NCBI RefSeq assembly: GCF_902652985.1
Contig: NC_047023.1
Location: 21,390,001-21,454,000 of the forward strand
Length of the DNA: 64,000 nucleotides
Direction: 5' to 3'
DNA from: Pecten maximus
Taxonomy: Eukaryota
Part shown: one piece after another, positions 1,863-56,489 of the stretch
Position numbering within the stretch: the stretch's first letter is position 1
Layout: each line of letters opens with the position of its first letter
Program-made: the position numbers and the translations under genes
The notes under the pieces: model-generated
Told to the model about the DNA's origin: nothing
What the model saw: the letters and a program-made list of their open reading frames with translations, nothing else
The model's database searches: none

Positions 1863-2395
1863 TATATTTGGCAACATTTACAGTTGCAACATTTGTGGAG
1901 AAATTGTGAATAATAGGGGGTTGCGCTTATCCCTGAATATGGATGTATACTTGGTAAAATATGGTATATAACAGTACTACGATATCCTATTCCTTGAGGA
2001 CAATCTCTGTAGGATGGAATCAGAATAATGTACCCTAAAACAGCATACCTTCCAGTGACATATTTGATTCATTAAAACCATTGACGACATGATGATCAAA
2101 TAGCTCCTAATGCACTCAAGAAACGCTATATAACTAAATCAAACATATAAGCATGATTCTTCTTTTACCCTGTGATGACTGAAATTCACACAAAATTATC
2201 ATCAATTCACATAATCAACTATGTATGCTTCAGCTGTCAGAATATCAACCAAAATGAACTTTTCATGTGCCTTAGTTGGGAATATTGTCAAGTTAAGTTA
2301 TGATGTGAAGTTAGACAAGTTTAATGCTTGGTGACATGCCTGGTGGTTCTGTTGTCAAAACCCTGGTTTTCAATTTAAGGAAATAGCATTTGACC

Positions 2396-3230: not shown

Positions 3231-3269
3231 CTTATCCTTCAGAAACACCTGGTCTTGTTCTTGTTCAAT

Positions 3270-3683
3270 GCTTTGGACTCAAAATTGTACAAATCATGGG
3301 GCTGACCCTCTGGGGGCCTCTGGGGTCAATTTGGCTAAATTGATTTAAACAACTTATTCTCTGAAACTTAGCAATGGTTTGATTTGGGATTCAAAATTGC
3401 ATAAAGGAAGGTGCTGACCCCCCAGGGGGCAGAGAGCAGGGTCAAAAGGGGTCAATTGGTCTAAACAAGTTCTTCTCTGAAACTAAGCAATGGATATCAC
3501 TCACATTTGTGTGGTAGCATCCCTATGGGGTCGCGCCAAAAGTCAATTTCATTTCATGGATTAATGCACTTTTTGGCATTTTTAGTATTAAAATAAAACA
3601 TGTACCCATATAAAATGCTTATGATATAAATTGACATATCATGAAAACCATGTGAGCGATACAGGCCCTCTGGGCCTCTTGTT
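3270..3683 (+). mobile_element. 5'-truncated non-autonomous Helentron-like element (HINE)
   Basis: About two diverged internal monomers (GGGGTCAAT..AAACAAxTTxTTCTCTGAAACTxAGCAATGG) and the 3' end GTGAGCGATACAGGCCCTCTGGGCCTCTTGTT (subterminal motif, GC hairpin, TT). Confidence 0.7.
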
Positions 3684-5522
3684 CAAGGGTCTTTATCTAA
3701 ATAGATAATTTTGTCCTCATCTTATTCCATTTACATGTTTGTATTGTGTTCTAGCTTATTTGGCATAACAATTTTTTCATTTGTATGAGAAATAAACTTT
3801 TTGTTAAATCATCTGAACCAGTTTTGGGGTTGACATACTACTGGTAGACCCTGTATGGTAACTGCTTTGGAAGACATCATATCAGTTTTCTACACCTGTG
3901 TAGGACAATGCTATGACTTCTTGTAATATATATGTGGCAGCCGAAAATGCTATCCGAAAATGCTTGAGAATGACCAAATTAAAGGCATTGTGCCCTTACA
4001 CAACATCTATTCTGAAATGATATATATCTTAACAGCTGGTTTAATTGAGCAAGTTCATCATTGCTGATTGGTAATTTTAATGTTGATTTTCTGAAAAAGT
4101 GATATCATTGTTTTCATCATCTGAACAATGGCTTCCTATGGATATAAGTTTATTCTTTTAAATCAATATTCATTCTGTGCTTCCTTTCTAAAAGTGCTTG
4201 CTTGATATAACTTACCTGGTCCGAGTATGAAAGGTCAAGGTCACCATTCTATACATAGATAATTTTAAGTTTCAATGGGGTTGATGAAATCCAAATTTCA
4301 AACATTGCTTCTGTATAGAAGGCCAATTACAACAGCATTGGATAAATTTTATGATATCATGATTATTTTATTATAATATTTGTAATTTTGGAAAAAAATC
4401 ATCATTCAGAGTAAATCAGCACAGAAAGTGTGAAAATAAAAAGGTAGGTCACATGACCTGTTACAGAAACTGATTGACAGTAACTGACCCCTTGGTTTCT
4501 GGGCAGTAGCTTCTGTTCTTATTGGCCTGTTTTGACCATATAGCTGGCATGTGTGGAGTGGTTTTATGGGATTGTTTTTCAGGGTCAAAGGTCATAGGAT
4601 TGGTTATTAAAAATATAATTACATTTATGCTTTAGTTTCCATACAGCAACTTCTGTTCCTTTTAGCTGTCCCTCAAATCATGCATAGTTATTTCTATATA
4701 GTCATATTGTTTTCTTTATATGTTACTGTGATTGCTGGCGCTCACAATATCTAGTAATTCATTTTACTAACTCATGCAATGTCTGGCTGGAATGAGAATA
4801 TAGATCTGGGTCAATTACGTGATCACTCACCTATAAAACTTCTACACCTACCCAATCCATTTTAATAGAATTGACCACTGTCTGCGACAATGCCCGCTCG
4901 ATCAGTTAAATTAGCATTTAAATGACCAGAGAAAGTGTCTCTTACCTGACTGTACCTGGGTCATTGACCTCTGGTATTGACGCTAACCTGCCAAGTATAT
5001 GAAAACTGTCTTATGACAGAGAGAAAAAACTACAGATATATAACAGTTTCTTTAAGAGGAAGAGGATCCGTTGAAATGTAACAGTTTCCACACCTTTTGT
5101 TGAAGGTTAAAGTTTTTGTGGTGCCAATTGTTTGCTGGAGAATAGGTTTGGGCAGTGACCTGGGGAAGTGTGGGTATGAGTAGTACTGTGGGGGACAATG
5201 TTCTATGATATAGTGTTTAAAAACCTGTCATTAGTCTACTGTTGGAGGGTATCATATTTACTTTTACTGTCGACAAACACTTAGCCTCAAAATATCTCCT
5301 GGCAAATTATTACTGGTAAGTTTTACTTTTTTAATAGAAAATTCAATTAATGATTTTCTTATATATTTATCAAATGAATTATGCATTATACTAACCAACA
5401 TATTTATTGATTTTTTAAAATTTTAATGTTTGAATGCTTAATATGTGTATTTTGTATTTCTAAAGCTTTGTTAACTTCATATTTTTAACTTGTACTGTTT
5501 CTGAAATTTTACCTCACTTGTG

Positions 5523-7038
5523 GTTCTGAAGTTGGGATTTATATTTTGAATGGGTGATTCTGAAGTTGTACTTTATATTTTGAATGGGTGATTCTGAAGT
5601 TGTACTTTATATTTTGAATGGGTGATTCTGAAGTTGGGATTTATATTTTGAATGGGTGATTCTGAAGTTGTACTTTATATTTTGAATGGGTGATTCTGAA
5701 GTTGTACTTTATATTTTGAATGGGTGATTCTGAAGTTGTACTTTATATTTTGAATGGGTGATTCTGAAGTTGGGATTTATATTTTGAATGGGTGATTCTG
5801 AAGTTGTACTTTATATTTTGAATGGGTGATTCTGAAGTTGTACTTTATATTTTGAATGGGTGATTCTGAAGTTGTACTTTATATTTTGAATGGGTGATTC
5901 TGAAGTTGTACTTTATATTTTGAATGGGTGATTCTGAAGTTGGGCTTTATATTTTGAATGGGTGATTCTGAAGTTGTGCTTTATATTTTGAATGGGTGAT
6001 TCTGAAGTTGTACTTTATATTTTGAATGGGTGATTCTGAAGTTGTACTTTATATTTTGAATGGGTGATTCTGAAGTTGTACTTTATATTTTGAATGGGTG
6101 ATTCTGAAGTTGTACTTTATATTTTGAATGGGTGATTCTGAAGTTGTGCTTTATATTTTGAATGGGTGATTCTGAAGTTGTGCTTTATATTTTGAATGGG
6201 TGATTCTGAAGTTGTACTTTATATTTTGAATGGGTGATTCTGAAGTTGTGCTTTATATTTTGAATGGGTGATTCTGAAGTTGTGCTTTATATTTTGAATG
6301 GGTGATTCTGAAGTTGTACTTTATATTTTGAATGGGTGATTCTGAAGTTGTACTTTATATTTTGAATGGGTGATTCTGAAGTTGTACTTTATATTTTGAA
6401 TGGGTGATTCTGAAGTTGGGCTTTATATTTTGAATGGGTGATTCTGAAGTTGTGCTTTATATTTTGAATGGGTGATTCTGAAGTTGTGCTTTATATTTTG
6501 AATGGGTGATTCTGAAGTTGTGCTTTATATTTTGAATGGGTGATTCTGAAGTTGTGCTTTATATTTTGAATGGGTGATTCTGAAGTTGTACTTTATATTT
6601 TGAATGGGTGATTCTGAAGTTGTACTTTATATTTTGAATGGGTGATTCTGAAGTTGTGCTTTATATTTTGAATGGGTGATTCTGAAGTTGTGCTTTATAT
6701 TTTGAATGGGTGATTCTGAAGTTGGGCTTTATATTTTGAATGGGTGATTCTGAAGTTGGGCTTTATATTTTGAATGGGTGATTCTGAAGTTGGGATTTAT
6801 ATTTTGAATGGGTGATTCTGAAGTTGTGCTTTATATTTTGAATGGGTGATTCTGAAGTTGGGATTTATATTTTGAATGGGTGATTCTGAAGTTGGGCTTT
6901 ATATTTTGAATGGGTGATTCTGAAGTTGGGCTTTATATTTTGAATGGGTGATTCTGAAGTTGTACTTTATATTTTGAATGGGTGATTCTGAAGTTGGGCT
7001 TTATATTTTGAATGGGTGATTCTGAAGTTATGCTTTAT
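5523..7038. repeat. 34-bp minisatellite (TGATTCTGAAGTTGTACTTTATATTTTGAATGGG)n, ~44 copies
   Basis: Period 34 (5551, 5585); variation confined to GTAC/GTGC/GGGC/GGGA. Confidence 0.97.
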
Positions 7039-7392
7039 ACATTTCATGTGTGGCTCTGAAGTTACACTTCATAATTTGAACTTTAGTTTAAAATGTAATA
7101 TTGAAAATCATGATATTGATTTATATTTCGATTCTTGCTGAAATAACTTTTGCTATTGTGCTCTGTATGGCTTACAGAAAAAAACCTTGGTGTGGTATTG
7201 CTTTCCTTTGATCTTTTGGTCAATACTATTGTCTTTTGCCTCAATACTTTTACATATTTATATTGACCTCAAGTGTTTGCACATCAATTTCCTTGTCTGA
7301 ACGGTAGACATTTGGCACTATTTCTATGGGACACACAGACTTCCCTTGTGACCCTTGAGTAAGGGTACATTTAAGACACGTACTGCTCCAAG

Positions 7393-7617
7393 TGTCAATT
7401 GTGGTAAACGTCTATTGTGGTAAATGTCTATTGTGGTAAACGTCTATTGTGGTAAACGTCAATTGTGGTAAACGTCTATCGTGGTAAACGTCAATTGTGG
7501 TAAACGTCAATTGTGGTAAACGTCAATTGTGGTAAACGTCAATTGTGGTAAACGTCTATTGTGGTAAACGTCTATTGTGGTAAACGTCTATTGTGGTAAA
7601 CGTCTATTGTGGTAAAC
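7393..7617. repeat. 16-bp minisatellite (ATTGTGGTAAACGTCT)n, ~14 copies
   Basis: Period 16 (7401, 7417). Confidence 0.95.
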
Positions 7618-7745
7618 ATTTATTAATTTCTATTGTCATTTTACATGTGATAATTCATGTGAACACATGTCCATTTTTTTGTGACAAAAAGAAAGGTACC
7701 ATTCAATATTGTAAAATTTGATCTTGTATATCAGACTTATGTATC

Positions 7746-9514
7746 AGTTATACTAGTATGTCCCCCTCCCCTACTACCTTAGTTATACTAGTATGTCCCC
7801 CTCCCCTACTACCTTAGTTATACTAGTATGTCCCCTCCCCTACTACCTTAGTTATACTAGTATGTCCCCTCCCCTACTACCTTAGTTATACTAGTATGTC
7901 CCCTCCCCTACTACCTTAGTTATACTAGTATGTCCCCCTCCCCTACTACCTTAGTTATACTAGTATGTCCCCCTCCCCTACTACCTTAGTTATACTAGTA
8001 TGTCCCCTCCCCTACTACCTTAGTTATACTAGTATGTCCCCCTCCCCTACTACCTTAGTTATACTAGTATGTCCCCCTCCCCTACTACCTTAGTTATACT
8101 AGTATGTGCCCCTCCCCACTACCTTAGTTATACTAGTATGTCCCCCACCCCTACTACCTTAGTTATACTAGTATATCCCCCTCCCCTACTACCTTAGTTA
8201 TACTAGTATGTCCCCCTCCCCTACTACCTTAGTTATACTAGTATGTCCCCCTCCCCTACTACCTTAGTTATACTAGTATGTCCCCTCCACTACTACCTTA
8301 GTTATACTAGTATGTCCCCTCCCCTACTACCTTAGTTATACTAGTATGTCCTCCTCCCCTACTACCTTAGTTATACTAGTATGTCCCCCTCCCCACTACC
8401 TTAGTTATACTAGTATGTCCCCCTCCCCACTACCTTAGTTATACTAGTATGTCCCCCTCCCCTACTACCTTAGTTATACTAGTATGTCCCCCTCCCCTAC
8501 TACCTTAGTTATACTAGTATGTCCCCCTCCCCTACTACCTTAGTTATACTAGTATGTCCCCCTCCCCTACTACCTTAGTTATACTAGTATGTCCCCCTCC
8601 CCTACTACCTTAGTTATACTAGTATGTCCCCCTCCCCCACTACCTTAGTTATACTAGTATGTCCCCCTCCCCTACTACCTTAGTTATACTAGTATGTCCC
8701 CCTCCCCTACTACCTTAGTTATACTAGTATGTCCCCCTCCCCTACTACCTTAGTTATACTAGTATGTCCCCCTCCCCTACTACCTTAGTTATACTAGTAT
8801 GTCCCCCTCCCCACTACCTTAGTTATACTAGTATGTCCCCCTCCCCTACTACCCTAGTTATACTAGTATGTCCCCCTCCCCTACTACCTTAGTTATACTA
8901 GTATATCACCTCCCCTACTACCTTAGTTATACTAGTATGTCCCCTCCCCACTACCTTAGTTATACTAGTATGTCCCCCTCCCCTACTACCTTAGTTATAC
9001 TAGTATGTCCCCCTCCCCCACTACCTTAGTTATACTAGTATGTCCCCCTCCCCACTACCTTAGTTATACTAGTATGTCCCCCTCCCCTACTACCTTAGTT
9101 ATACTAGTATGTCCCCTCCCCTACTACCTTAGTTATACTAGTATGTCCCCTCCCCTACTACCTTAGTTATACTAGTATGTCCCCCTCCCCTACTACCTTA
9201 GTTATACTAGTATGTCCCCTCCCCTACTACCTTCGTTATACTAGTATGTCCCCCTCCCCTACTACCTTAGTTATACTAGTATGTCCCCCTCCCCTACTAC
9301 CTTAGTTATACTACTATGTCCCCCTCCCCTACTACCTTAGTTATACTAGTATGTCCCCCTCCCCTACTACCTTAGTTATACTAGTATGTCCCCCTCCCCT
9401 ACTACCTTAGTTATACTAGTATGTCCCCCTCCCCTACTACCCTAGTTATACTAGTATGTCCCCCTCCCCTTCTACCTTAGTTATACTAGTATGTCCCCCT
9501 CCCTTACTACATTA
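7746..9514. repeat. 35-bp minisatellite (AGTTATACTAGTATGTCCCCCTCCCCTACTACCTT)n, ~50 copies
   Basis: Period 35 (7746, 7781); C-run length variants; internal palindrome ATACTAGTAT. Confidence 0.97.
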
Positions 9515-10182
9515 GATTTATATTCTATATATAGAATTGAATCATAATGATGATAATGATAACATGAAAATTTTCTGGAAGATCAAGGAAAACCTGTATG
9601 CATTGTACGTTGTTACAAGTTTTAAAGTATCAGCTCACATCATGCGACCGTTGTGTTCTCTCATCCGTGGGTCCCGGCTTATGTTTCTGATGTGACAGGA
9701 AAATGTCACGGAGTAATAATAAAAGATTCTGTCAGTTAATCCCAACAGATTTACACTCATTAAAAAGATATGAACACCTAGGTTTAATAGCTGTCAAATA
9801 CATTTAAACTGTATAGGAATCTCAAAAATACTCATAAATTTTGGGCAAGTAACTTATTGATGCATAAAACTGTGTAAAAAGCATGGCCATGGTTGGACGG
9901 TCACTCCTGACTGACTCCTTGGGGCATGCCATACTGTTACAGTACAAGTTACACAGGTGATGCTTTCCTTCAATAATGTATGTACAGCATTAGTGAGTCT
10001 ACAGAGATAGGACCTAGGGTGGGGTAGATCAACGTTTATGTGCTTACAGTCCTGGTGTTTCATTAATGTTTTACACTGATCCATTTATTCATAGAGAAAG
10101 AGAATGGTCTGATTATCATGATAATGCTTGATAAAATAGTTCTGGGAAACGTTCCGCACGTTTAGTGATACATTATAGGTAG

Positions 10183-25785: not shown

Positions 25786-27310
25786 TATGTAATCTAACAA
25801 TAGTGATACAAAAAATTTCGGTGGATGTTTTCTGTCGGTTTGTATCACACATGTGTGATACAAGATGTTGTATCACCATTCTAGCCGGAACTACTTTTAA
25901 GGGGAATTCCCTTTTCCATGAAACTAAAAATAGACAGTTCATTGGAAGAAATAAAGTGAAGCTGTATCTTACAACATTGATTAAAAATTATGAAAACATT
26001 TTTTTGAAATAAATGCATTTAATTACAAGTAAAAATCAATTACTTGAATATTTTAAATGTACGTTTATTTCTCTTGAATAAATATTGTCCTCCGACATTT
26101 CTGTCGTCTGCTAGTCTGTTTGATAGCTCATAGTCTATCATCATAACATGGAACATTATGACGTTAACTTTGAAATTCTTCATGATATTATATTTGATGA
26201 AGTGGTAACGAGGAATTTAATGAAAGATCAACGAAAACTCATGGAGGCAATTCAACTCACCAGAGGTCATTTGCGAACTTCTACAAAATGTCCCCGAAAC
26301 ATCTTTGTCAACAAAGTCTGTCCGATCGACAATTTCTCGTAGTGAAGTGGCAAAGAGAAATTCCAGAAATGAAAACGTGGTCGAACCAGTGAAAATTCAA
26401 TGCCAAGGTCATCTAGAGATTGTCAAAATCTTGCCACGGGAATGTTTTCTGGGGCAAATATTACTGGCGGCACATTTAACATTTCCTTTCAAATATCTTC
26501 CCAATCTTCCTCTCAAGTTATATCTCCTCCTAGGAAATATCGTAGAATCCTACCAATCACTGACTCTGACGATGACTCGGTGTGACATGTCGCTTGTTTA
26601 TGTGAATGAATTGCACGCGCTGTGATGTAGTCGCTCAACGACAGCACATTAGCTATATGTCTAGGTATGGAGAATGTGTTTGATGCCATCGATATATAGG
26701 TTTAAATTAATTTGATTTTTTTTACTATATCCATGCTTAACGAATGCTAAATCAAATTAAATTAAACAGTATTTGTAAATTTTGCTGCTTGAAGTAAACG
26801 ATGTTGTATTTTAAATCATAATTAAATGCTGAACACTTTCACTGACAGTTGGGAGAATTTATTAACATATAACGTTATCTGATTGCAAATAAATGATTTT
26901 GCATCAATTAGTGTTGTGATTTTCCTTTACATTATCAGTTTGAAAACAGAAAGGAGTTAATCAGTACAAAAATATTGATAAAGTGTAACTGGCTAGATCT
27001 GTCAACTAGGCCTACACTTTTAATCAGTTGGCGAATTTATGATGACGAGATGACGATTTTTTTTCTGCATTGAAAACGAAAATAATACATAGTGATGTGA
27101 CGTCACTTGAAACCGCAAATGGATTTCATAATTAAGGAAAGTTGTAATTAATAAAGGTATGTGATAAAAGCAAAACCACCCATATGTGTTTCTTGCGCGG
27201 AGGAAAAATATCACTCGTGTGCTCCGCACACTCGTGATATTTTCCTCCGCGCAAGAAACTCAGGCGATCCGACTCGACAGATCAACACATATGGGTGGTT
27301 TTGCTTATGT
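25786..27310 (+). mobile_element. Internally deleted, non-autonomous Crypton-like (tyrosine-recombinase DNA transposon) element
   Basis: CpG-rich block; left-end GTGATACAA/TTGTATCAC palindromes; right-end long hairpin with CACTCGTG..CACTCGTGATATTT motif; ORF remnants resembling N- and C-termini of Crypton/KIAA1958-like proteins; candidate 5-bp terminal direct repeat TATGT. Family assignment is from recalled motifs, not a search. Confidence 0.55.
26148..26585 (+). pseudogene. Frameshifted N- and C-terminal remnants of a Crypton-type tyrosine recombinase ORF (catalytic core absent)
   Basis: MEHYDVNFEILHDIIFDEV... and ...GMFSGANITGGTFNISFQ...PPRKYRRILPITDSDDDSV*; the F-x-G-x-x-I-x-GG-x-F-x-I plus basic/acidic tail is typical of these proteins; stops between the two parts. 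Confidence 0.5.
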
Positions 27311-43189: not shown

Positions 43190-45438
43190 ATTCCCACCAC
43201 ACAACCAGTATATTGTTTCCCACCACACAACCAGTATATTGTTTCCCACCACACAACCAGTATATTGTTTCCCACCACACAATCAGTGTATTGTTTCCCA
43301 CCACACAACCAGTATATTGTTTCCCACCACACAACCAGTGTATTGTTTCCCACCACACAACCAGTATATTGTTTCCCACCACACAATCAGTGTATTGTTT
43401 CCCACCACACAACAAGTGTATTGTTTCCCTCCACACAACCAGTATATTGTTTCCCCCCACACAACCAGTGTATTGTTTCCCACCACACAACCAGTATATT
43501 GTTTCCCACCACACAACCAGTATATTGTTTCCCACCACACAACCAGTATATTGTTTCCCACCACACAACCAGTATATTGTTTCCCACCACACAACCAGTT
43601 TATTGTTTCCCACCACACAACCAGTGTATTGTTTCCCACCACACAACCAGTGTATTGTTTCCCACCACACAACCAGTGTATTGTTTCCCACCACACAACC
43701 AGTATATTGTTTCCAAACACACAACCAGTATATTGTTTCCCACCACACAACCAGTATATTGTTTCCCACCACACAACAAGTTTATTGTTTCCCACCACAC
43801 AACAAGTGTATTGTTTCCCACCACACAACCAGTATATTGTTTCCCACCACACAACAAGTGTATTGTTTCCCACCACACAACCAGTGTATTGTTTCCCACC
43901 ACACAACCAGTATATTGTTTCCCACCACACAACCAGTATATTGTTTCCCACCACACAACCAGTATATTGTTTCCCACCACACAAACAGTATATTGTTTCC
44001 CACCACACAACCTGTATATTGTTTCCCACCACACAACCAGTGTATTGTTTCCCGGCCACCACACCAGCATATTGTTTCCTACCACACAACCAGTGTATTG
44101 TTTCCCACCACACAACCAGTTTATTGTTTCCCACCACACAACCAGTGTATTGTTTCCCACCACACAACCAGTTTATTGTTTCCCACCACACAACCAGTTT
44201 ATTGTTTCCCACCACACAACCAGTATATTGTTTCCCACCACACAACCAGTATATTGTTTCCCACCACACAACCAGTGTATTGTTTCCCACCACACAACCA
44301 GTATATTGTTTCCCACCACACAACCAGTATATTGTTTCCCACCACACAACCAGTTTGTTTCCCACCACACAACCAGTATATTGTTTCCCACCACACAACC
44401 AGTTTATTGTTTCCCACCACACAACCAGTTTATTGTTTCCCACCACACAACCAGTGTATTGTTTCCCACCACACAACCAGTGTATTGTTTCCCACCACAC
44501 AACCAGTATATTGTTTCCAAACACACAACCAGTATATTGTTTCCCACCACACAACCAGTTTATTGTTTCCCACCACACAACCAGTGTATTGTTTCCCTCC
44601 ACACAACCAGTGTATTGTTTCCCTCCACACAACCAGTATATTGTTTCCCACCACACAACCAGTGTATTGTTTCCCACCACACAACCAGTTTATTGTTTCC
44701 CACCACACAACCAGTATATTGTTTCCCACCACACAACCAGTTTGTTTCCCACCACACAACTAGTATATTGTTTCCCACCACACAACCAGTGTATTGTTTC
44801 CCACCACACAACCAGTTTATTGTTTCCCACCACACCAGTATATTGTTTCCCACCACACAACCAGTATATTGTTTCCCGGCCACCACACCAGTATATTGTT
44901 TCCCACCACACAACCAGTATATTGTTTCCCACCACACAACCAGTATATTGTTTCCCACCACACAACCAGTATATTGTTTCCCACCACACAAACAGTGTAT
45001 TGTTTCCCACCACACAACCAGTGTATTGTTTCCCACCACACAACCAGTATATTGTTTCCCACCACACAACCAGTATATTGTTTCCCACCACACAACCAGT
45101 GTATTGTTTTCCACCACACAACCAGTATATTGTTTCCCACCACACAACCAGTTTATTGCTTCCCACCACACCAGTATATTGTTTCCCGGCCACCACACAG
45201 GTAAATTGTCTCACAACACAAAACCAGTATATTGTTTCCCACCACATAACCAGTATATTTTTTCCCACCACACAACCAGTTTATTGTTTCCCACCACACA
45301 ACCAGTATATTGTTTCCCGGCCACCACACCAGCATATTGTTTCCTACCACACAACCGGTATATTGTTTCCCACCACACAACCAGTATATTGTTTCCCACC
45401 ACACAACCAGTATATTGTTTCCCACCACACAAGTATAT
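43190..45438. repeat. 26-bp minisatellite (TTCCCACCACACAACCAGTATATTGT)n, ~86 copies
   Basis: 26-aa periodic ORFs in all frames. Confidence 0.97.
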
Positions 45439-46519
45439 TGGATATACTGCACAATTCAAATCAGCATCGATGATATCTGGTTGCATAAATCATATACAAA
45501 AGGCTTGAATATACCCAGTTGTGTGTTACAATATTGATATTTGACGATGACTTTCAATTTTTCCCTGATGTTACTTTACAAAATACAATAACTTTCTGGA
45601 CTTGATATTTTGAGAGATTTCAGAAACCAATATCATTGCTTCATTGTTTAGCATCAATTTCAGATTTTTTTTGCTGCCATTAATCTTTCTTTTGGAAGTT
45701 TTATTTTAATGTTTTTGGATGAAAATTTCATTACAGCAGTTATTTCTATGGATGAGTTATTTCATTGTCCATAGAGACAATAGATCTACTGATAGATACA
45801 TGTGTTCTCTGCCCTTGGAGAATTACACTTTTTTTCCAGATGATAATCAAACGAGTCTTGTCATATTTTATGGTGTCTAACTGAACTAGATTAGCGATAG
45901 TATCGGCTACTAATATGTCAGGGTGCAGTGTGTTGATGTAAGCGGTATCCCAGAATGCAGTATGTTGATGTGAGTGGTATCCCAGGGTGCCGTATATTGA
46001 TGTAAGGGTATCCCAGGATGCAATTATTTGTGAGTGATGTAAAAGGCATCCCATAGGTCCTGTACAACTCGCCACTTTCTCTACCTTTGTTTTAAATGCT
46101 GATTTTTGATTCAGCAGAAGGCCTTGACATCCAACTGCCTATTAGGACCTATCCTTCATGCTGGTTTTCGTAGTTTTTACTCTAAATTTCAGTCTATTTG
46201 ATAGCAAGGTCAATTTGTCTTGACACAGATTTGGTAGCTAAGGAGTTAAACCTTCAAAGCATAGGGGCTTGAAAGATACATCATGACTTTTTCTCAGGGA
46301 CTGAGGGCTCAGGCCTTGTAGAGCAGGCAGAACACGTCTATAACTGTCAGGCAGATGAATGTGTGTGAAGGAGAACTGGTGTTCTTTCAGATTACCATGG
46401 GATACTGTAAAACCTTAACATGGTTAGGAGGGAGACTTATTACCTAAATGCAAGGTCAGAACCTGTACAACCTATATCCATTTTCACTCTGTATTATTTC
46501 TCCTTCACATTTCTGCCAG

Positions 46520-46797
46520 GATGTCCGATCAGTTGGAGATTGATGTCACTTTTGAATTATTCTTTAGTTTTTGTTTGTTTCAAGAACAGACCTTTCCCAA
46601 TGTAGTAACAGATTTTAATGTCCGATCAGTTGGAGATTGATGTCGATTTTGAATTATTCTTTAATTTTTGTTTGTTTCAAGAACAGACCTTTCCCAATGT
46701 AGTAACAGATTTTAATGTCCGATCAATTGGAGATTGATGTCACTTTTGAATTATTCTTCAATTTTTGTTTGTTTCATAAACAGGCAATGTAATAACA
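46520..46797. repeat. 97-bp tandem triplication (~2.8 copies)
   Basis: ATGTCCGATCA at 46521, 46618, 46715. Confidence 0.95.
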
Positions 46798-47323
46798 GGT
46801 TTTCTTCTGTTTGAGTGAACATCACAGTATCATTGTACAAGATATGCTGGACTATTGTTGATAAATGCGATTAAGTCTTTCTCAAGGTAAGGTATACAAT
46901 TTGTAAGGTAGAATCTACGAGCTAGATCTGTATGATTTACACATACCTTAGTCGCGTTGGGAGGCCCATACTTCATTGAGACATGTAGGTGGTTTTTACT
47001 CTCAACATCATTCTCTTTGATGTAGAATCATAGGCTGATGTCTGTCCTGATTACACTGTGTAAACACTGTAAATGCAACTGATGACCATCTACTACATAA
47101 GCAACAAAACATATTTGTCTGCAAAATCATACCTGAGCAAGATACATATTTGACTAAACATTAGACTTGAGTAACTTGCTGTCTACAAAACCAAACTAAA
47201 ACTATCTGTCTTTCTGTCTGAAAAAAAATCCTTCATAAACCACATACATTCATCAATTATTTGTCTATAGAAATTGATATGAGGAAGATACACATTTGAA
47301 AGTAAAATTGTATTAGGCTCATA

Positions 47324-48325
47324 TTTTGTGTGTAGGTGGTGTGTTATGTTTTGTGTGTAGGTGGTGTGTTATGTTTTGTGTGTAGGTGGTGTGTTATGTT
47401 TTGTGTGTAGGTGGGATGTGTTGTCTGTTTTTGTAGGTAGGTGGTGTGTGTTCTTTTTGTGTGTAAGGTGGTGTGTTAGTTTTGTTTTGGGGTGGGGGGT
47501 TTGTTATGTTTTGTTGTAGGTGGGTGGGCCATGTTTTTGTGTTTTTGTTAGTGTTTCTTTTTTGGGTGTGTGTAGGTGGTGTTATGTTTTGTGTGTTGGT
47601 GGTGTGTTATGGTTTGTGTGTAGGTGGTGTGTTATGTTTGTGTGTAGGTGGTGTGATGTGTTGTGTGTGTAGGTGGTGGTGTTGTTGGTGGGGTTGTCTG
47701 GTGGGTGGTGTGTTGTTGTGTCTGTTTTGTATGGTGGTGGTTTGGTGGTTGTGGTGTTGGGTGTGTGTGGTTGTGTGTGTTGGTGGTGTTTGTTTGTGTG
47801 TGTGTGGGTTGTTGTGTGTGTGGGTGTGTTTGGTGTGGGGGTCGGTGGTTTTGTGTGTGTGTGTGTGTTGTTTGTGTAGGTGGTGTGTTATGTTTGTGTG
47901 TTGGTGGTGTGTTATGTTTTGTGTGGTGGTGTGTTATGTTTTGTGTGTAGGTGGTGTGTTATGTTTTGTGTGTTGGTGTGGTTTGTTTTGTGTGTGGTGG
48001 TGTGTTATGTTTTGTGTGTTGGTGGTGTGTTGTTTTGTGTGTTGGTGGTGTGTTATGTTTTGTGTGTAGGTGGTGTGTTATGTTTTGTGTGTAGGTGGTG
48101 TGTTATGTTTTGTGTGTAGGTGGTGTGTTATGTTTTGTGTGTAGGTGGTGTGTGTTTTGTGTGTAGGTGGTGTGTTATGTTTTGTGTGTAGGTGGGTGTG
48201 TTGTGTTTTGTGTGTGGGTGGTGTGTTATGTTTGTGTGTAGGTGGTGTGTTATTGTGTGTTTTGGTGTGTTATGTTTTGTGTGTAGGTGGTGTGTTGTGT
48301 TTTGTGTTTTGGTGGTGTTTTATGT
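47324..48325. repeat. 25-bp GT-rich minisatellite (TTTTGTGTGTAGGTGGTGTGTTATG)n with a scrambled centre
   Basis: Clean units at 47324-47410 and 48050-48150; noisy G/T-only interior. Confidence 0.9.
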
Positions 48326-49554
48326 GTTTTTCAATGCTGTGGGGGTAATTCTTGCTAGTTATTTTAATATTTCTATCTGCTGAGTCAGTATATTTGAAAA
48401 GGGAAAATTTTCAATTTTTTTTATGAAATTTCTTAGAGGAAAAAGCTATGAGGTAGATTCAAACTGTAGTTAGATTTCTATCATACAGTAGACTAAAATC
48501 TGTAGGGTCCAACATTATGGCTCTTCAGAGATCTGTAAATACGTACTAAATCTAGTCCCTGGGGGTACCATCTTGTGCTTGATGTCCTTGTGTGTGACAG
48601 GCTGTCTACACAGAGGACTGTGGTCAAGGAGGGGTGAGGGTCAGACTGTAAGCTTTGTGTACTGTAGTATGGCCACAAAACATACTTGTTTAACCATTCT
48701 TCTCTACAGGATTTCTGGTTTTTTATGCCCTCCCCACGAATTGGTTGGAGGCATTATGTATTGTTGGTTTATCAATAGTGATGTGCTGCTGATATTATAT
48801 AGGAATATTTTTTAGCGATCAAAAATCAATTCTGTCGGGTGACATTGTTGTTTCGTTTATTTTTTTGTGTTTTTCATTTTTTGCTTTTCGTGTTGACTTA
48901 TGTTTCCGTCTCATACATCAGATTTTTTAGATAATTCTGAAGTTAAGTCTTAAATAAAGGAATTCTTTAACTAGAAGTAAGGAGATTTAGTTAAACATCC
49001 TTTGTAAACAAAATTAAGAAAGAAGTTTTGTTGTAAAGTGCTCAGGTGTTGTTGTTGTTATGTTTTTGAGTGGCAGTGCCATACACGATGGTTACACAGC
49101 AGAAAGTGGAGATTATTTAGAGTATACCTATCACCTGTATTTTCTTGTTGCCAGGTAATTAGTAGAAAACCTGTAAAGTACACTTGATTCACTCGCATAT
49201 TTCCTCTCACGATGTAAAGTGTGGCTTTAAAACTTGTATCGTCAGTAGAGGAAACCCAGTACCTCAGCTGACCTTGTATAGATTGTCAGTCAATTCTTTA
49301 AACATGACACCCTTATTGAAAAGGGCAGCCTAAACTACGGATGTGTCGCGGTATTATTGCCGCCCTGGTCACAATTGTTAGGTAAACACAGATCGAGGTA
49401 CCCTGATAGACCTATACAGTTCAGTTGGTACGAGGAGCCAGCACGTTGATTTGATCGTGGGCGTGTATACAAATCATTTCAATGATTGAAGAGTCAATTG
49501 TCACTCGTCCTGATTAGTGACCTGTCCAAATCAGTCTGTCCCGTTTATATCTGG

Positions 49555-50810
49555 TAAATAATAAACTATTAGGATAATCTCTCCTGTACTTAACTTGTAA
49601 ATAATAAACTATTAGGATAATCTGTCCTGTACTTACCTTAGCAGGTAAGCCATCAAAGTAATATTTCCTGTACTTACCTTAGCAGGTAAGCCATCAGAAT
49701 AATCTGTCCTGTACTTACCTGATCAGGTAAGCAATCAAAGCAATATTTCCTGTACTTACCTTAGCAGGTAAGCCATCAGAATAATCTGTCCTGTACTTAC
49801 CTGATCAGGTAAGCAATCAAAGCAATATTTCCTGCACTTACCTTAGCAGGTAAGCCATCAGAGTAATCTGTCCTGTACTTACCGGATCAGGTAAGCCATC
49901 AGAGTAATCTGTCCTGTACTTACCCGATCAGGTAAGCCATCAGAGTAATCTGTCCTGTACTTACCTTAGCAGGTAAGCCATCAGAGTAATCTGTCCTGTA
50001 CTTACCTTAGCAGGTAAGTCATCAGAGTAATCTGTCCTGTTCCTACCTGATCAGGTAAGCCATCAGAGTAATCTGTCCTGTACTTACCTTAGCAGGTAAG
50101 CCATCAGAGTAATCTGTCCTGTACTTACCTTAGCAAGTAAGTCATCAGAGTAATCTGTCCTGTTCCTACCTGATCAGGTAAGCCATCAGAGTAATCTGTC
50201 CTGCACTTACCCGATCAGGTAAGCCATCAGAGTAATCTGTCCTGTACTTACCTTAGCAGGTAAGCCATCAGAGTAATCTGTCCTGTACTTACCTTAGCAA
50301 GTAAGTCATCAGAGTAATCTGTCCTGTTCCTACCTGATCAGGTAAGCCATCAGAGTAATCTGTCCTGCACTTACCTGATCAGGTAAGCCATCAGAGTGAT
50401 CTGTCCTGTTCCTACCTGATCAGGTAAGTCATCAGAGTAATCTGTCCTGTTCCTACCTGATCAGGTAAGCCATCAGAGTAATCTGTCCTGTACTTACCTG
50501 ATCAGGTAAGCCAACAGAGTGATCTGTCCTGTTCCTACCTGATCAGGTAAGCCTCAGAGTAATCTGTACTATAATTTACCTGATCAGGTAAACCATCAAA
50601 GCTTACCTGATCAGGTAAGCCAACAGAGTGATCTGTCCTGTTCCTACCTGATCAGGTAAGCCATCAGAGTAATCTGTCCTATAATTTACCTGATCAGGTA
50701 AACCATCAGAGCTTAACTGAACAGGTAAGCCATCAGAGTAATCTGCCCTGTACTTACCTGATCAGGTAAACATCAGATTAATCCCTCCTATTCTTGCTCA
50801 GGAAAGCCAT
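49555..50810. repeat. 41-bp minisatellite (ATCTGTCCTGTACTTACCTTAGCAGGTAAGCCATCAGAGTA)n with palindromic splice-site core, ~29 copies
   Basis: Period 41 (49866, 49907); perfect palindromes CTTACCTGATCAGGTAAG at 49714-49731 and GCTTACCTGATCAGGTAAGC at 50601-50620. Confidence 0.96.
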
Positions 50811-51264
50811 CTGAGCTGATTTATTTTGTGTCGGATATGATATCCGTATGAGAAAGTTGACACTATGTATTGTGTCACATACATTTAATGGAGCTTGGGA
50901 GGCTCCAAATACTCCCATAATATCAGTTATATGTGTCAGTTATAATAGAAATTGTGATATTAAGTAAAAATGGATGTTTATTGGTGAAAACCTAAATGAG
51001 AGTCTGTATACACCGTACAGTACTCCAGATGTAATCCTATGAAGGATTGTACAGAAGATATACCTGGTATTAGCACCTTTCTAAACAAATTGATGGATAC
51101 AGCGGTCATTACAGCCTTCATCACCACGAGTGAGGTAACAAGATACACCACAAGCTTTTCTACGTTTGCATGGTGACCATTATTGTGAAACCTGCATGAT
51201 GTGACGCAGTGTATTCCAAAATCCTGCTGAATATTAATTATTATTTCTAATTGAAAATATGTCT

Positions 51265-51728
51265 AAGTAAAAGCTGTATATACCAGCATCTTGTCTAATT
51301 GACCAATATGTCGGTCCCAGTCTGTCAGATTACACAGGTATATCTAACCTGTATGTTGTGTCCCTTGTGTGTCAGATATGATAAGTCTGTTCTCTATGTG
51401 TCAGATTAGACAGGTTTATCTAACCTGTATATTGTGTCCCTTGTGTGTCAGATATGATAAGCTTGTTTCCAATGTGTCAGATTAGACAGGTTTAAGTAAC
51501 CTGTATATTGTGTCCCTTGTGTGTCAGATAAGATAAGTCTGTTCTCTATGTGTCAGATTAGACAGGTTTATCCAACCTGTATATTGTGTCCCTTGTGTGT
51601 CAGATATGATAAGCTTGTTTCCAATGTGTCAGATTAGACAGGTTTATCTAACCTGTATATTGTGTCCCTTGTGTGTCATATTATATAAGTCTGTTCTCTA
51701 TATGTCAGATTAGACAGGTTTTACAGTA
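51265..51728. mobile_element. 76-bp tandem array (~5 copies, alternating A/B variants) built from the right terminus of a Tc1/mariner-type MITE
   Basis: TGTCAGATTAG at 51399, 51475, 51551; array ends TGTCAGATTAGACAGGTTTTACAGTA; degraded left arm TAAAAGCTGTAT..TGTCTAAT near 51268-51300. The array is certain; the MITE origin is inferred. Confidence 0.6.
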
Positions 51729-52307
51729 TTGTATTTTATGTTTCAATTTGGCAAATATTTTACACTGAAAATAAAATGTTGATCTAATGGAACAAGATCT
51801 GTTTTTTGTGAAATGCATATATATAACAGAGAGAGAAATGATTGCAAACTTCTAGGATAATTACAATTAGATTGCAATGTTAAGTTTTTCCAAACAGTTT
51901 TATACTTAAACATTAAAAATACTTCAGTGGGCCTGTTGTACAGGTTGTCGTTAATTAGACGGGAGGCTTACTGTCAGATGTGCTAGCAGGTATTGACCCA
52001 AGGTTGGTGTGGAACAGAGGTGTGGGTCTCATCTATTATTGATACTGCTGTAGTGATCTCCTGTAATGGACCTCATATCAGCCTCGCATGTACACTGATA
52101 TATGTATCAGACTCCAGCATCCTTTCTCCTTCTCTCTATCTTCAGCTTCCAGTTTTCCAATAGCTGTCCATTCCTCCAATACCTCAGATGTCTTGTTTGT
52201 CTCTTTTGTTTGTCCATTCTTCTGTTATTACTGTCTCTCCATATCCTCCATCACCGAACTGATAAGCATCTTGTAGTGTACTGACAAGGACACATCAAGT
52301 TCATTTA

Positions 52308-52656
52308 CATTGTGACCTTGACCCACTTTCATGGTCATAGGGATGAAATGTGTTGAACATTTTAAACAACCAAAGCTGGGCCCAGGGCTTTGAGATTTGG
52401 CCAACTACTGGAATGGAAGGCTTTAATTATCATTTGCTTCTAAACTTTTTTTTTCATTATTGCATTAAACAAATTAATTAAATTCAATAAGATTCATAGA
52501 TAGGTATACAGTACAAATGTACACTTATTCATATATGAAAGGATTTACATAATGTGTAGAGTAAATGATTTTACAGATTTTAATGATTTTAAAGCTACTC
52601 AAATTGATTCACAGTACATTATAGTGAGATGAATAATTGGTGAGGGGTACAGGCCC
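52308..52656 (+). mobile_element. 5'-truncated, diverged HINE
   Basis: TGACCTTGACC..TCATGGTCATAGGG monomer part; 3' GGTGAGGGGTACAGGCCCATTCGGCCACTTGGTT. Confidence 0.55.
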
Positions 52657-53534
52657 ATTCGGCCACTTGGTTGTTTTTTTCTTTTTACAAGGAACTCGGT
52701 CTTTATTTTTAATAACAAATTAATGATCACCATTTGGAATATATTATACACTGATTACGTTGAAGTTTAAGCAGATTTGCACTGTGTTACAATACATTAG
52801 CCTCAAGTAATTAACCAACCAGTTCGCTGTACTTCTATATAATACATCTGATCCATGTTTACTTTATAAAGGCCTTTTCTATGCAGCATGTGGTAATTAT
52901 ATTAAGAGCATGAAAGATATTTAAGTAGGAATTTATTTTTTTTATAGGTTGAAGGTTCTTTTCTATAAAGTTGATGTCAATGTCATAATTGTTATGTATA
53001 TGCATAAGAATATCATTTTCAGATGTAAACATTTCTATATACTGAATTTCAAATCAAGCATTTAAAATTTGTTTGATTGATGCTATAAATTTAATATGAA
53101 TTTAATGGGACATTACAATGTCAATAAGGCAGTGTAAAGGTCGGTATATTGAATTAAAGATATATTTCTTATCTTTATGTATCGGCAGTGATTATGTGTA
53201 CAACAGTCACATAGATATAATAATGAGAGAATTAAAACAGGTTTATCATCACCGTTAGGTTTTCCACACAGATTTATTGGGCATACCTTAGTTTGATCAC
53301 ATCCATTGTACAGGCCACACAGCTGATTCGTGAATCCACAGTATTTACACTGCAAAGTCTAATACTTGATATTACATGGATTGAAACTTGTATATAATGT
53401 TGAGGTTTTCTGGAACAGACTATAAGTAATGTGTGAGAGCAGTGTGTAGGTAAGCCGGAGTGTGTATGCAATTAGAGTCATTAATAATACAGCACTGTTG
53501 ATTAGGTATGGGCTCTCTGACCTTGTTTTTCCTT

Positions 53535-53746
53535 TGACGTCATAGATCGGCACATGAGCTAGCAGCCTGGTAGATAGCAGGCTGGTATACACACAAGGTA
53601 CATACGTAGGTATAGTGTTGTAGTCAGCCTACTAAGACACACAGACCTGTGTATACCGTGCTCATCAGTCCTCAGTCTCTCTTACATGGAATCTAACACA
53701 TACTGACCACCGTCTGATATAAACTGGAGTCTACGGCAAGGTACGT
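53535..53746 (+). promoter_or_regulatory. Candidate promoter/first-exon region: CRE palindrome TGACGTCA followed by a donor-like AAG|GTACGT
   Basis: TGACGTCA at 53535-53542; unique, less AT-rich sequence; donor at 53740/53741; motif evidence only. Confidence 0.2.
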
Positions 53747-54558
53747 ACCATTTTTCCCACACACTTTTCCATTGCCGACAAATATATATCAAATTTTCAT
53801 TCATGATAAGGTTAATATTTGTCTGTATGGTGTTCCAGTAGGTTAATGTAGGTACCACCTGACCAGGCCTATAGGTGCTATTTCAAATTGATTTCTATAT
53901 TCTTTCCTTCACCAGTATGTTAGCTGTCTGTGTGGATGACATAACCCTTTGGCCTGGCAAACCAGGCTTCTGTGATAAATTAGCATTGTTTTACTCAGCA
54001 ACCCTGCTATAGATTTTACCAGAGCTTTGATTTGTTAGTGTAAGTAGTGTAATTTTGCTCACCTCATTGGAGCAGGGGTATGTTGTGTTTACATAAGACT
54101 AAAGCCATCAACCTAGGCTTTATTTAAGGCCAGGCGAAACACTCATCCATAGACGACAATTCTGGTGTAAAAACTGTGTACACATTATGTATATATTGTG
54201 TGTATACCTAACCCAGCGTCAACACATGTAATAGTCAGTGGTACTACACCGAGAACAGTGCTTTACTAGTCTGGGTATATGCTAACCAGGGTAGGCATTA
54301 TATAATGTATACCGACTTAACAGCATCCGTCACCTGCAAAATGTACAGCAGGAATGTCAGTGGAATGCCAAGCGGATTAGCATCTTATTTCATACTAGGA
54401 AGCGTATTATGTAATGAACAGAGAAGTGTGTCTTATGTCACACCGGGTGTTAAGTAGCAAAAATATCATGTCATCCGTGGAGAAGCTGGTCAGCACATAG
54501 CTAGTTTGTCACATGGGGAATATAAAAATAAATGTCTTTGTGGGTAGCAGTTTATCTA

Positions 54559-54989
54559 TCTGTGGGAAGTTGTTATGTCCCTGTGGGAAGTTGTTATGTC
54601 TCTGTGGGAAGTTGTTATGTCTCTGTGGGAAGTTGTTATGTCTCTGTGGGAATCATGTTATGTCTCTGTACGAATCATGTTATGTCTCTGTGGGAAGTTG
54701 TTATGTCTCTGTGGGAAGTTGTTATGTCTCTGTACGAATCATGTTATGTCTCTGTGGGAAGTTGTTATGTCTCTGTGGGAAGTTGTTATGTCTCTGTGGG
54801 AAGTTGTTATGTCTCTGTACGAATCATGTTATGTCTCTGTGGGAAGTTGTTATGTCTCTGTGGGAAGTTGTTATGTCTCTGTGGGAAGTTGTTATGTCTC
54901 TGTGGGAAGTTGTTATGTCTCTGTACGAATCATGTTATGTCCCGGTGGGAAGCTTTTTGTCTCTGTGGGAAGCTTGTTGTCTCTGTGGG
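54559..54989. repeat. 21-bp minisatellite (TGTGGGAAGTTGTTATGTCTC)n with interspersed 22-bp variant TGTACGAATCATGTTATGTCTC, ~20 copies
   Basis: 7-aa periodic ORFs with frame switches at the variant. Confidence 0.95.
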
Positions 54990-55002
54990 TAGTAGATCTC
55001 TG

Positions 55003-55640
55003 TAGAGTCTGTCACATTATCAGTGACACATAGTGTAAGCCACAATATCAGTGACACATAGAGTCAGTCACAGTATCAGTGACACATAGAGTCAGTCCCA
55101 GTATCAGTCACATTATCAGTGACAAATTGTGTCTGTCACAGTATCAGTGACACATAGAATCTGTCACAGTATCAGTGACACATGGAGTCAGTCACAATAT
55201 CAGTGACACATGGAGTCAGTCACAGTATCAGTGACACATAGAGTCAGTCACAGTATCAGTGACACATAGAGTCAGTCACAGTATCAGTGACACATTGTGT
55301 AAGTCACAGTATCAGTGGCACATAGAGTCACCATAGAGTCAGTCACAGTATCAGTGACATATAGAGTCAGTCACATTATCAGTGACACATAGAGTCAGTC
55401 ACAGTATCAGTGACATATAGAGTCAGTCACAGTATCAGTGACACATAGAGTCAGTCACAGTATCAGTGACACATAGAGTCAGTCACAGTATCAGTGACAC
55501 ATAGAGTAAGTCACAGTATCAGTGACATATAGAGTCAGTCACATTATCAGTGACACATAGAGTCAGTCACAGTATCAGTGACACATAGAGTCAGTCACAG
55601 TATCAGTGACACATAATGTCACATCAGTGACACATTGTGT
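55003..55640. repeat. 28-bp minisatellite (AGTCAGTCACAGTATCAGTGACACATAG)n, ~22 copies
   Basis: Period 28 (55441, 55469); internal GTCAC..GTGAC inverted repeat. Confidence 0.95.
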
Positions 55641-56489
55641 CATAGACTTACATCGACACATTGTTGACGGTTACACTGTCAGTCAAAGTGACAAATGGTG
55701 CCCAACAGTTATACACACAATGATTGACATTGATCCCATCTTTCTGTAATAATAAGGAAGTTACCATCATCAGCCAGTACCCAGTAATTTACCAGGCTGA
55801 AATATGGTACAGGTGTAATGACTGTAGATAGCTTTATTATACAGGGATACAGGTAGAGTCTTGTATGAAGATAATTATAGATGTATGTACAACAGTGATA
55901 TACATGTATTAAATGATATAAGGTCGGTGGGGGGAGGGGATTAATTTTTATCTGAAAGACAAGATTTTAAAGCAATCTGAAGGATCCATTTAAGCTTTTG
56001 TGGTGTATTGTAGTGTGACATTGGACAAACAATGGTTATAATAAATGTTAAACGTGTCAAAAGCCAGATTTTTACTGTTATGTTAATTTGTAGCGACCTG
56101 TAAAAATTATTTCTAACCAGCCTGATTGACGGAAGTCATTTATACAAGTCACTGCAAACTGATGAAATTCACCTTGAGCCAAGTATGATTGACAGCTACT
56201 TATTCAACTGTTGGCCCCAACCCTGACTGTGGCATTTCACTTACGTCCATGAATATTAGGCAATATGACAGATTAAATTTTTTTTTTTTTTTACAAAACT
56301 GTAAGTTTTCATTGAATACCTGTTTAACTTTCTATTGTTATGATATATTTTGTTCTTTTTCCTTAATGATAGTTTGTGATCAATAAGACTAATATATGAA
56401 GCTAATGCTAATTTTATGCATTCTTAATCAAATGGATCCTGTACACAGATATCAGACCACAAAAGATGCTTTTGTGTCTTCATGCATTA

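What the first reader, a model, noticed from the sequence alone, without database searches (positions are those of the whole stretch)
49610..50775. Minisatellite whose unit is a recursive-splice-site-like cassette paired with a built-in U1 snRNA mimic
Seen: on the + strand each 41-bp unit reads GAGTAAT-CTGTCCTGTACTTACCTT-AGCAG|GTAAG (or ...ACCTGATCAG|GTAAG). That is a TAAT about 25 nt upstream, a pyrimidine-rich tract, and YAG directly followed by GTAAG, with GTAAGT at 50011 and 50421. The upstream TACTTACCTG pairs with CAGGTAAG, giving perfect 18-20 bp palindromes, so the minus strand also carries CAG/AAG|GTAAGTA donors. Known: (Y)nCAG|GTAAG is the ratchet-point motif of recursive splicing in very long introns, and TACTTACCTG equals nt 2-11 of U1 snRNA. 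Inference: about 28 such units in an apparently huge intron could act as a ratchet array, a U1 snRNP landing pad or sponge (telescripting), or be tolerated only because the hairpin masks the donor. The variants CTTACC(TGATCA/TTAGCA/CGATCA)GGTAAG alter the hairpin centre but keep the outer arms. A chance amplification of one palindrome is also possible.
Basis: partly seen in the sequence, partly recalled or inferred. Interest (0 to 1): 0.7.

Follow-up and report, generated by a model that had tools for sequence, protein, structure and literature searches.

The report
Splice-signal minisatellite beside a MEF2 exon
A 41-base piece holding a splice-signal look-alike and its mirror image is repeated about 29 times near an exon of a muscle-control gene (MEF2), but repeats carrying this signal are common in this genome, so this one is likely an inert repeat rather than a device for stepwise splicing.

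Summary
The array is real: 29 junctions, 24 reading YAG|GTAAG. Perfect 18-20-nt palindromes occur in only 7 of 29 units and the full U1 10-mer in 4. The 'U1 mimic' is the donor's reverse complement, not a separate feature. The array lies 2.8 kb upstream of a MEF2 5'-UTR exon that one contig splices over 49 kb to the first coding exon; an intronic, sense-strand position is likely but inferred. The motif is common here: 4 of 177 randomly sampled arrays carry YAG|GTAAG (0.56 expected), implying thousands genome-wide. Many begin at a real exon's donor ('mirages', which this scan already noted elsewhere in this genome). Four other arrays share the same donor hairpin, three beside coding exons. Hairpin masking is not enriched among donor arrays. 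No coding exon adjoins this array, so mirage origin is unproven. Best reading: a neutral, locally born minisatellite. Recursive splicing is untested (about 7%). Interest low.

The parts
49618..50790 (+). 41-bp minisatellite, 29 donor-like junctions (GT at 49645 to 50766; two 27-nt and one 42-nt spacing near the right end)
49632..49649 (.). First copy of the inverted-repeat core (anti-donor arm, 4-6-nt centre, donor arm); donor-like on both strands
49554..49639 (+). Left edge: 43-bp doublet, 95% alike, starting exactly at a GT; its second junction (49597) is a clear degenerate copy of the unit
   Evidence: (score 30, best of 1126 unique-sequence GT contexts 21)
49525..49559 (+). Candidate seed donor (CTG|GTAAAT, GT at 49554); weak donor, weak likeness to the unit; no exon shown
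   Evidence: score 3.3 against 5.7 and 7.1 for two real donors; score 16, reached by 18 of 1126 contexts
50771..50813 (+). Right edge: degenerate copy of the unit, GA in place of GT at 50802
   Evidence: score 25
53517..53545 (+). Putative branch point (CTGAC), pyrimidine tract and AG of the MEF2 5'-UTR exon; overlaps a CRE-like palindrome at 53535-53542 (motif names recalled)
   Evidence: use inferred, not shown
53546..53740 (+). MEF2 5'-UTR exon: 53709-53740 and its donor are shown, the 5' end is inferred; spliced over 49,125 nt to the first coding exon (L020:8866)
   Evidence: one contig of run X3; MEF2 identity

Best explanation
This is a single-locus minisatellite, likely born on the spot and likely without function, whose unit holds a splice-donor sequence and its reverse complement. 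Shown: the array, its degenerate edge copies, the absence of a close copy elsewhere, and a MEF2 5'-UTR exon 2.8 kb downstream on the same strand. Inferred: a donor-containing segment of about 41 nt was duplicated by slippage or unequal exchange; the interior was homogenised while the edges diverged; the imperfect inverted repeat was partly perfected in some variants, possibly by template switching. The seed was either a chance donor-like sequence (about 2 in 3) or the donor of an unshown non-coding exon, a 'mirage' (about 1 in 3). If transcribed, the copies would be removed with a long MEF2 5'-UTR intron as silent pseudo-donors, because no defined exon lies in front of them and the hairpin lowers access.
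For: Setting: 26,762 of 64,000 window bases were masked as tandem repeat; 25% of 749,500 sampled bases are tandem repeat. Uniqueness: the 18-nt palindrome occurs 5 times, all here; DNA search finds only two other arrays at 66-69% identity; the left flank has no second copy (that search is a lower bound). Base rate: 8 of 177 random arrays carry AG|GTRAG (2.2 expected) and 4 YAG|GTAAG (0.56); reversed control 1 (1.7); AGGTAAG ranks first of 140 permutations. Period-28 donor pairs: 1302 matches against 511 control. Cause of the excess: of 20 such loci fetched, 3 start at a Pfam-matched exon end (EGF, FH2, trypsin) and about 6 more look so by eye; of 9 donor arrays from the random and flanking sets, 2 have Pfam-matched upstream frames (one weak) and 2 more look exon-like. 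Same hairpin elsewhere: 4 other arrays, 3 starting at calpain, ankyrin and MFS-like exon ends. At locus level CTTACC-N6-GGTAAG has at most 25 loci against 29 control matches. Edges diverge from the interior, as described for mirage clusters (PMC3087553, passages). Mirages and F7 pseudo-donors leave mRNA normal (PMC3087553 and PMC3902484 passages; PMC1557585 abstract).
Against: No RNA was examined over the array itself, so low-level use of its junctions is not excluded. The setting is what recursive splicing needs: likely sense strand, very long intron. Donors score 7.5-8.9 in 24 of 29 units, above two real MEF2 donors (5.7, 7.1), and the commonest acceptors reach the top 3-9% of AGs on a home-made matrix. 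U1 pairing (-11 kcal/mol) outweighs the local hairpin (-4.1 to -8.9). Donor/anti-donor matches exceed control at spacings 6 and 7-12 (142 v 29; 283 v 148), though not at 0-5 (187 v 174). In two mirage arrays the copies moved from the seed exon towards the anti-donor. No coding exon adjoins this array.
Confidence: 0.79

Rival explanations
1. The array acts as a cluster of ratchet points: an upstream MEF2 donor splices to a unit's AG, GTAAG is regenerated, and the next unit's donor 41 nt on supplies the cryptic exon.
For: 24 of 29 junctions read YAG|GTAAG; strong donors and moderate acceptors; likely long sense-strand intron; 41 nt is close to the roughly 50-nt cryptic exon of fly ratchet points (PMC8605326, abstract and introduction).
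Against: Fly ratchet points are described as ultraconserved motifs (PMC8605326), whereas this array has no close copy in the genome and 15 core variants. The site is only 2.8 kb from the presumed intron end. In the 10 TTAGCA-type units an upstream TAG precedes the junction by 3 nt. The 3' half of the pyrimidine tract is predicted paired with the donor. Single-copy AG|GT sites nearby have equal or better acceptors, e.g. 49155. The motif is common in arrays genome-wide.
Confidence: 0.07
2. The copies are harmful cryptic donors, and the array expanded only because hairpin-forming variants hide them from U1 (selected masking).
For: Predicted openness of the 8-nt donor is about 0.002 (median of 29) against 0.011 and 0.025 at two real donors. 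The fully palindromic unit is at the 2nd percentile of shuffles. Calpain and MFS mirage copies differ from their seed exon towards the anti-donor. Hairpins at a donor can block U1 (SMN2 TSL2, PMC1802598 abstract).
Against: Across 22 donor-bearing arrays (one locus counted twice) mean masking percentile is 0.43, 5 at or below 0.1 and 4 at or above 0.75; arrays of 27, 41 and 164 copies have exposed donors; the two other common unit types here sit at the 36th-40th percentile. The calpain and MFS cases were found by searching for the hairpin.
Confidence: 0.07
3. The array works at DNA level as a factor-binding block near a MEF2 promoter (CAGGTA sites of the ZEB/Zfh1 type; motif assignment recalled).
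For: 42 CAGGTA sites on both strands; 2.8 kb from an exon whose contig would begin at 53588 if contiguous, with a CRE-like palindrome 50 nt before it.
Against: No binding, chromatin or conservation data; the region has gene-body-like CpG depletion; the hexamer comes automatically with a donor motif. The paper search was seen only as a listing.
Confidence: 0.04
4. The transcribed array is a U1 snRNP landing pad or sponge that guards the long intron against early polyadenylation, with a built-in U1 mimic as a switch.
For: Up to 24 strong U1 sites in 1.2 kb; identity to U1 nt 2-11 in 4 units.
Against: The mimic is simply the donor's complement; no U1 family match in 45000-56000 and only short local alignments to the genome's U1. 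Many other arrays offer more open donors.
Confidence: 0.03

Closest known systems
Amphioxus 'mirages' (Adh3, globins BflGb6 and BflGb9, troponin C, PGBD5): PMC3087553 and PMC3902484, passages read
   Same: Short tandem units carrying AG/GT signals, homogenised interior with diverged borders; at least 3 arrays in this genome with the same donor hairpin start at coding exon ends.
   Different: No real exon is shown at this array's edge; the unit is donor-like on both strands.
Human F7 intron 7 37-bp VNTR with silent 5' pseudo-sites: PMC1557585, abstract read
   Same: A run of near-identical, potentially functional donors at about 40-nt spacing.
   Different: F7's first unit is the authentic exon 7 donor; none is identified here, and no hairpin is described in the abstract.
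Drosophila ratchet points and RS-exons: PMC8605326, abstract and introduction read
   Same: Juxtaposed acceptor and donor, a downstream donor 41 nt away, probably a long intron.
   Different: Tandem and variable rather than ultraconserved; no intermediate shown; tract predicted partly paired with the donor.
Donor-masking stem-loop TSL2 of SMN2 exon 7: PMC1802598, abstract read
   Same: A short hairpin is predicted over the 5' splice-site motif.
   Different: TSL2 covers a used, weak donor and is experimentally shown; here the donors are unproven and the hairpin only predicted.

Membership tests
Recursive splice site (ratchet point) | Juxtaposed acceptor and donor, YAG|GTAAG | tested here: met
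   24 of 29 junctions
Recursive splice site (ratchet point) | On the sense strand inside a long intron | tested here: inconclusive
   MEF2 exon shown 2.8 kb downstream on +; CpG o/e 0.29-0.37 and GC skew +0.056 to +0.072 upstream match the proven intron, 0.33 and +0.056; no upstream exon shown, and the exon could be a first exon
Recursive splice site (ratchet point) | Strong acceptor with pyrimidine tract | tested here: inconclusive
   Home-made matrix: at most 2.8, against 7.4 and -0.4 for two real MEF2 acceptors and 3.8 for the putative one; tract predicted partly paired
Recursive splice site (ratchet point) | Cryptic exon closed by a downstream donor | tested here: inconclusive
   A donor follows at 41 nt, but any tandem repeat of a donor gives this
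Recursive splice site (ratchet point) | Conserved between species | not testable with these tools
   No related genome is held
Recursive splice site (ratchet point) | Junction intermediates or saw-tooth coverage in total RNA | not testable with these tools
   Only assembled contigs were offered
Mirage (exon-intron boundary minisatellite) | First or last unit spans the boundary of a real exon | tested here: inconclusive
   No coding exon at either edge on either strand; candidate non-coding donor at 49554 is weak and only weakly like the unit
Mirage (exon-intron boundary minisatellite) | Copies retain AG/GT signals | tested here: met
Mirage (exon-intron boundary minisatellite) | Homogenised interior, diverged borders | tested here: met
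Mirage (exon-intron boundary minisatellite) | Mature mRNA spliced normally | tested here: inconclusive
   The intron downstream of the array is spliced normally in one contig; the array itself was not examined with RNA
U1 snRNA gene or fragment | Similarity beyond the 5' donor-pairing 10-mer | tested here: not met
   No U1 match in Rfam scan; best local alignments 9-18 columns

The most novel reading that the evidence does not exclude
A young minisatellite has planted about 24 ratchet points in the very long 5'-UTR intron of MEF2; each unit's hairpin gates U1 access, so copy number and arm variants tune recursive splicing of a muscle master regulator, and the thousands of donor-bearing arrays in this genome are a standing source of new recursive sites.
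Probability: 0.06. Interest if true: 0.75.

Novelty: new member of a known kind. Interest (0 to 1): 0.2.

Why it matters
As most likely read, it matters little: one of many donor-bearing minisatellites in a repeat-rich genome. The by-product is more useful than the locus: an estimate that 2-5% of this genome's minisatellites carry a splice donor, 4-7 times chance, many copied from real exon ends, so mirages appear genome-wide here rather than a few lancelet oddities. If the novel case held, it would show recursive splice sites arising from tandem repeats in an invertebrate outside the insects and give a length-variable, testable control point on MEF2.

Tried and rejected
RNA: no RNA holder was listed for 45433-54531, and no contig of runs X1, X2, X3 or X7 was laid on 48330-49700; both blanks are no evidence either way. 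Run X7 also gave no contig on the MEF2 coding exon, and X1 only part of it. Coding host gene inside the window: 224 of 358 non-repeat frames (those of 45 aa or more) gave no Pfam match at the curated cut-off; 145 of 452 flank frames gave only MEF2 and a C2HC5 zinc finger; a home-made exon scorer found those two genes' exons but no coherent gene in 200 kb upstream (it misses weak acceptors). Origin from U1: rejected. Origin from a dispersed repeat: no close copy found for the array or its left flank (lower bounds). Minus-strand mirage: every frame has a stop shortly before the first minus-strand donor. General hairpin excess in arrays: arms of 7 or more in 11 of 203, 2.5 in shuffles but 9.2 in unique sequence. 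MicroRNA-like Rfam hits in the array are far below their cut-offs. Period 41 could not be counted genome-wide; period 28 stood in. Paper searches listed nothing, by title and abstract start, on ratchet points built from minisatellites or on scallop mirages; the library lacks most subscription papers, and no supplements were read.

Full report
Observation. The window holds a 41-bp array at 49618-50790. It has 29 donor-like junctions: 24 YAG|GTAAG, 3 CAG|GTAAA, 2 CAA|GTAAGT. Perfect palindromes of 18-20 nt are in 7 units, 16 nt in 1, 14 nt in 7, and none over 4 nt in 14 (my notebook entry gave 8 for 14 nt, the call shows 7). All 29 keep 6-9 of 9 pairs. The genome's U1 genes begin with the matching 10-mer at nt 2-11, but only 4 units carry all ten letters. 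U1's 5' end is by definition the complement of a donor, so 'U1 mimic', 'palindrome' and 'donor on the other strand' are one fact.

Setting. About 42% of the window is tandem repeat in some 30 unrelated arrays; 25% of a 749,500-base genome sample is. Earlier AI notes call the organism a scallop; I did not check this. No coding exon was found in the window. A MADS-box exon of MEF2 lies at L022:2202. One 3,414-nt contig of run X3 joins MEF2's first coding exon to a 30-letter loose end that maps once in 264 kb, at window 53709-53738, followed by AG|GT. This shows a plus-strand 5'-UTR exon ending at 53740 and a 49,125-nt intron. The loose part is 151 letters; if contiguous it starts at 53588. A branch point, pyrimidine tract and AG at 53517-53545 suggest an internal exon, though a CRE-like palindrome there would also suit a promoter (motif names recalled). 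Non-repeat DNA from 73 kb before the window to the exon has CpG o/e 0.29-0.37 and GC skew +0.056 to +0.072, like the proven intron (0.33, +0.056); the median CpG o/e of 87 sampled loci is 0.81 and 13 fall below 0.45. GC skew matched gene direction in three minus-strand cases but not in the plus-strand ankyrin locus or the MFS locus. So the array is probably intronic and sense-strand in MEF2. This is inference.

Is the motif special? In 92 loci picked at round coordinates (918,900 bases) there were 177 arrays. Eight carry AG|GTRAG (2.2 expected from dinucleotide shuffles, 0 of 200 reaching 8) and 4 carry YAG|GTAAG (0.56; 0 of 200); the reversed control has 1. Scaled up, that is about 4,000 YAG|GTAAG arrays (my Poisson range 1,100-10,000). 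Genome-wide, donor pairs 28 nt apart number 1302 against 511 for the control. The motif is enriched, but everywhere. The cause is visible: I fetched 20 loci from the first 100 listed matches (one listed site pair was left out); 3 begin at exon ends matching EGF, FH2 and trypsin, about 6 more look like exon ends by eye, 1 is a reverse-transcriptase fragment, and the rest show no exon. Of 9 donor arrays from the random and flanking sets, 2 have Pfam-matched upstream frames (adipokinetic hormone over cut-off, VWC below it), 2 look exon-like, 1 resembles a tRNA-derived repeat head by eye, 3 show no exon and 1 is cut off. These are the 'mirages' described in amphioxus (PMC3087553, PMC3902484; passages read) and the F7 VNTR type (PMC1557585; abstract read), and noted before by this scan in this genome.

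Is the hairpin special? The exact 18-mer occurs only here. CTTACC-N6-GGTAAG has 142 matches against 29 control, but 122 lie in five arrays, so at most 25 loci. Of the four other arrays, three start at calpain, ankyrin and MFS-like exon donors (the MFS match is weak, E 0.009). Spacings 0-5 give 187 v 174 and 7-12 give 283 v 148; the listed parts show five more arrays, so tens are likely. The overall 1.7-fold excess is no larger than the donor excess itself. Among 22 donor arrays not chosen for hairpins, masking is unremarkable (mean percentile 0.43), and exposed donors persist in arrays of 27, 41 and 164 copies. Against this: in the calpain and MFS arrays the copies differ from the seed exon towards the anti-donor. 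That may be template switching (PMC3820800 and PMC8604942; listing and abstract start only) or selection, but both were found by searching for the motif.

Origin of this array. It has no close relative, and its left flank has no second copy. Degenerate copies flank it at 49597 and 50802. The left repeat boundary falls on a GT at 49554, in a mildly CpG-richer patch (o/e 0.67), the geometry of a donor mirage; but that donor is weak and its likeness to the unit is reached by 18 of 1126 background contexts. No coding frame adjoins either edge. Mirage origin from a non-coding exon is therefore open, about 1 in 3.

Mechanism. Shown: tandem array, homogenised interior, diverged edges, nearby spliced MEF2 exon. 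Inferred: local duplication and expansion; partial perfection of an imperfect inverted repeat; removal as silent pseudo-donors inside a long intron. Folding predicts a 5-8-bp stem over the donor and about five- to tenfold lower access than at two real donors, yet U1 pairing is stronger than the stem, so masking would be partial.

Rivals. Recursive splicing (0.07): motif and likely setting fit, and the next donor lies 41 nt on, near the roughly 50-nt cryptic exon of fly ratchet points (PMC8605326; abstract and introduction read). But those motifs are ultraconserved, while this array has 15 core variants, moderate acceptors on a home-made matrix, and equal or better single AG|GT sites nearby. 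Conservation and intermediates could not be tested. Selected masking (0.07), DNA-level binding block (0.04) and U1 sponge (0.03) have no specific support.

Verdict. Observation partly confirmed; interpretation partly supported in its premise and fallback only. A new member of a known kind, interest 0.2. The genome-wide excess of donor-bearing minisatellites is the more useful result.

Noticed in passing
window 53546-53740 and L020:8866-8998: MEF2 has a 5'-UTR exon 49 kb upstream of its first coding exon, and gene-body-like composition runs about 125 kb further upstream to a CpG-rich patch near 75 kb before the window, a possible distant promoter.
   Followed up: partly
L035:541-1949 (G000:C8:40.77 Mb): 34-bp, 41-copy mirage of a calpain domain III exon donor (minus strand); copies gained a donor hairpin and read as near-perfect donors on the other strand.
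   Followed up: partly
L127:3614-7785 (G000:C12:19.56 Mb): 37-bp, 108-copy array starting at the donor of an MFS-like transporter exon; most copies differ from the seed at two places towards the U1-like sequence.
   Followed up: partly
L126:3638-5578 (G000:C4:2.54 Mb): 38-bp, 51-copy mirage of an ankyrin-repeat exon donor; only 6 copies carry the full anti-donor arm.
   Followed up: partly
L151, L160, L161, L107, L137, L143: Further arrays starting at or just after exon ends (EGF, formin FH2, trypsin, adipokinetic-hormone-like, an unnamed frame, VWC-like).
   Followed up: partly
window 49135-49160; 4.8 kb before the window (L016): Single-copy AG|GT sites with acceptors as good as or better than the array's (49155: acceptor 4.7, donor 5.5; the upstream one 2.5 and 8.9); more conventional ratchet-point candidates.
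   Followed up: no
window 26050-27300: CpG-rich patch (o/e up to 0.96) with an inverted repeat near 27170-27300 (seen by eye) and a 133-codon frame without Pfam match; possibly a young mobile-element remnant or a promoter.
   Followed up: no
window 51323-51721: 76-bp array with 63-69% matches to arrays on many contigs, unlike the 41-bp array; may be a dispersed family.
   Followed up: no
L066 (minus strand, 53-bp array): Tandem array whose unit resembles the 5' half of a tRNA-derived repeat (by eye, recalled).
   Followed up: no
L004:1487-1975 and L002:816-2271: Two unrelated arrays share a short core with the 41-bp unit; the L004 one lies next to exons of a kinase gene (Raf-like by eye) and has its own short palindrome.
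   Followed up: no
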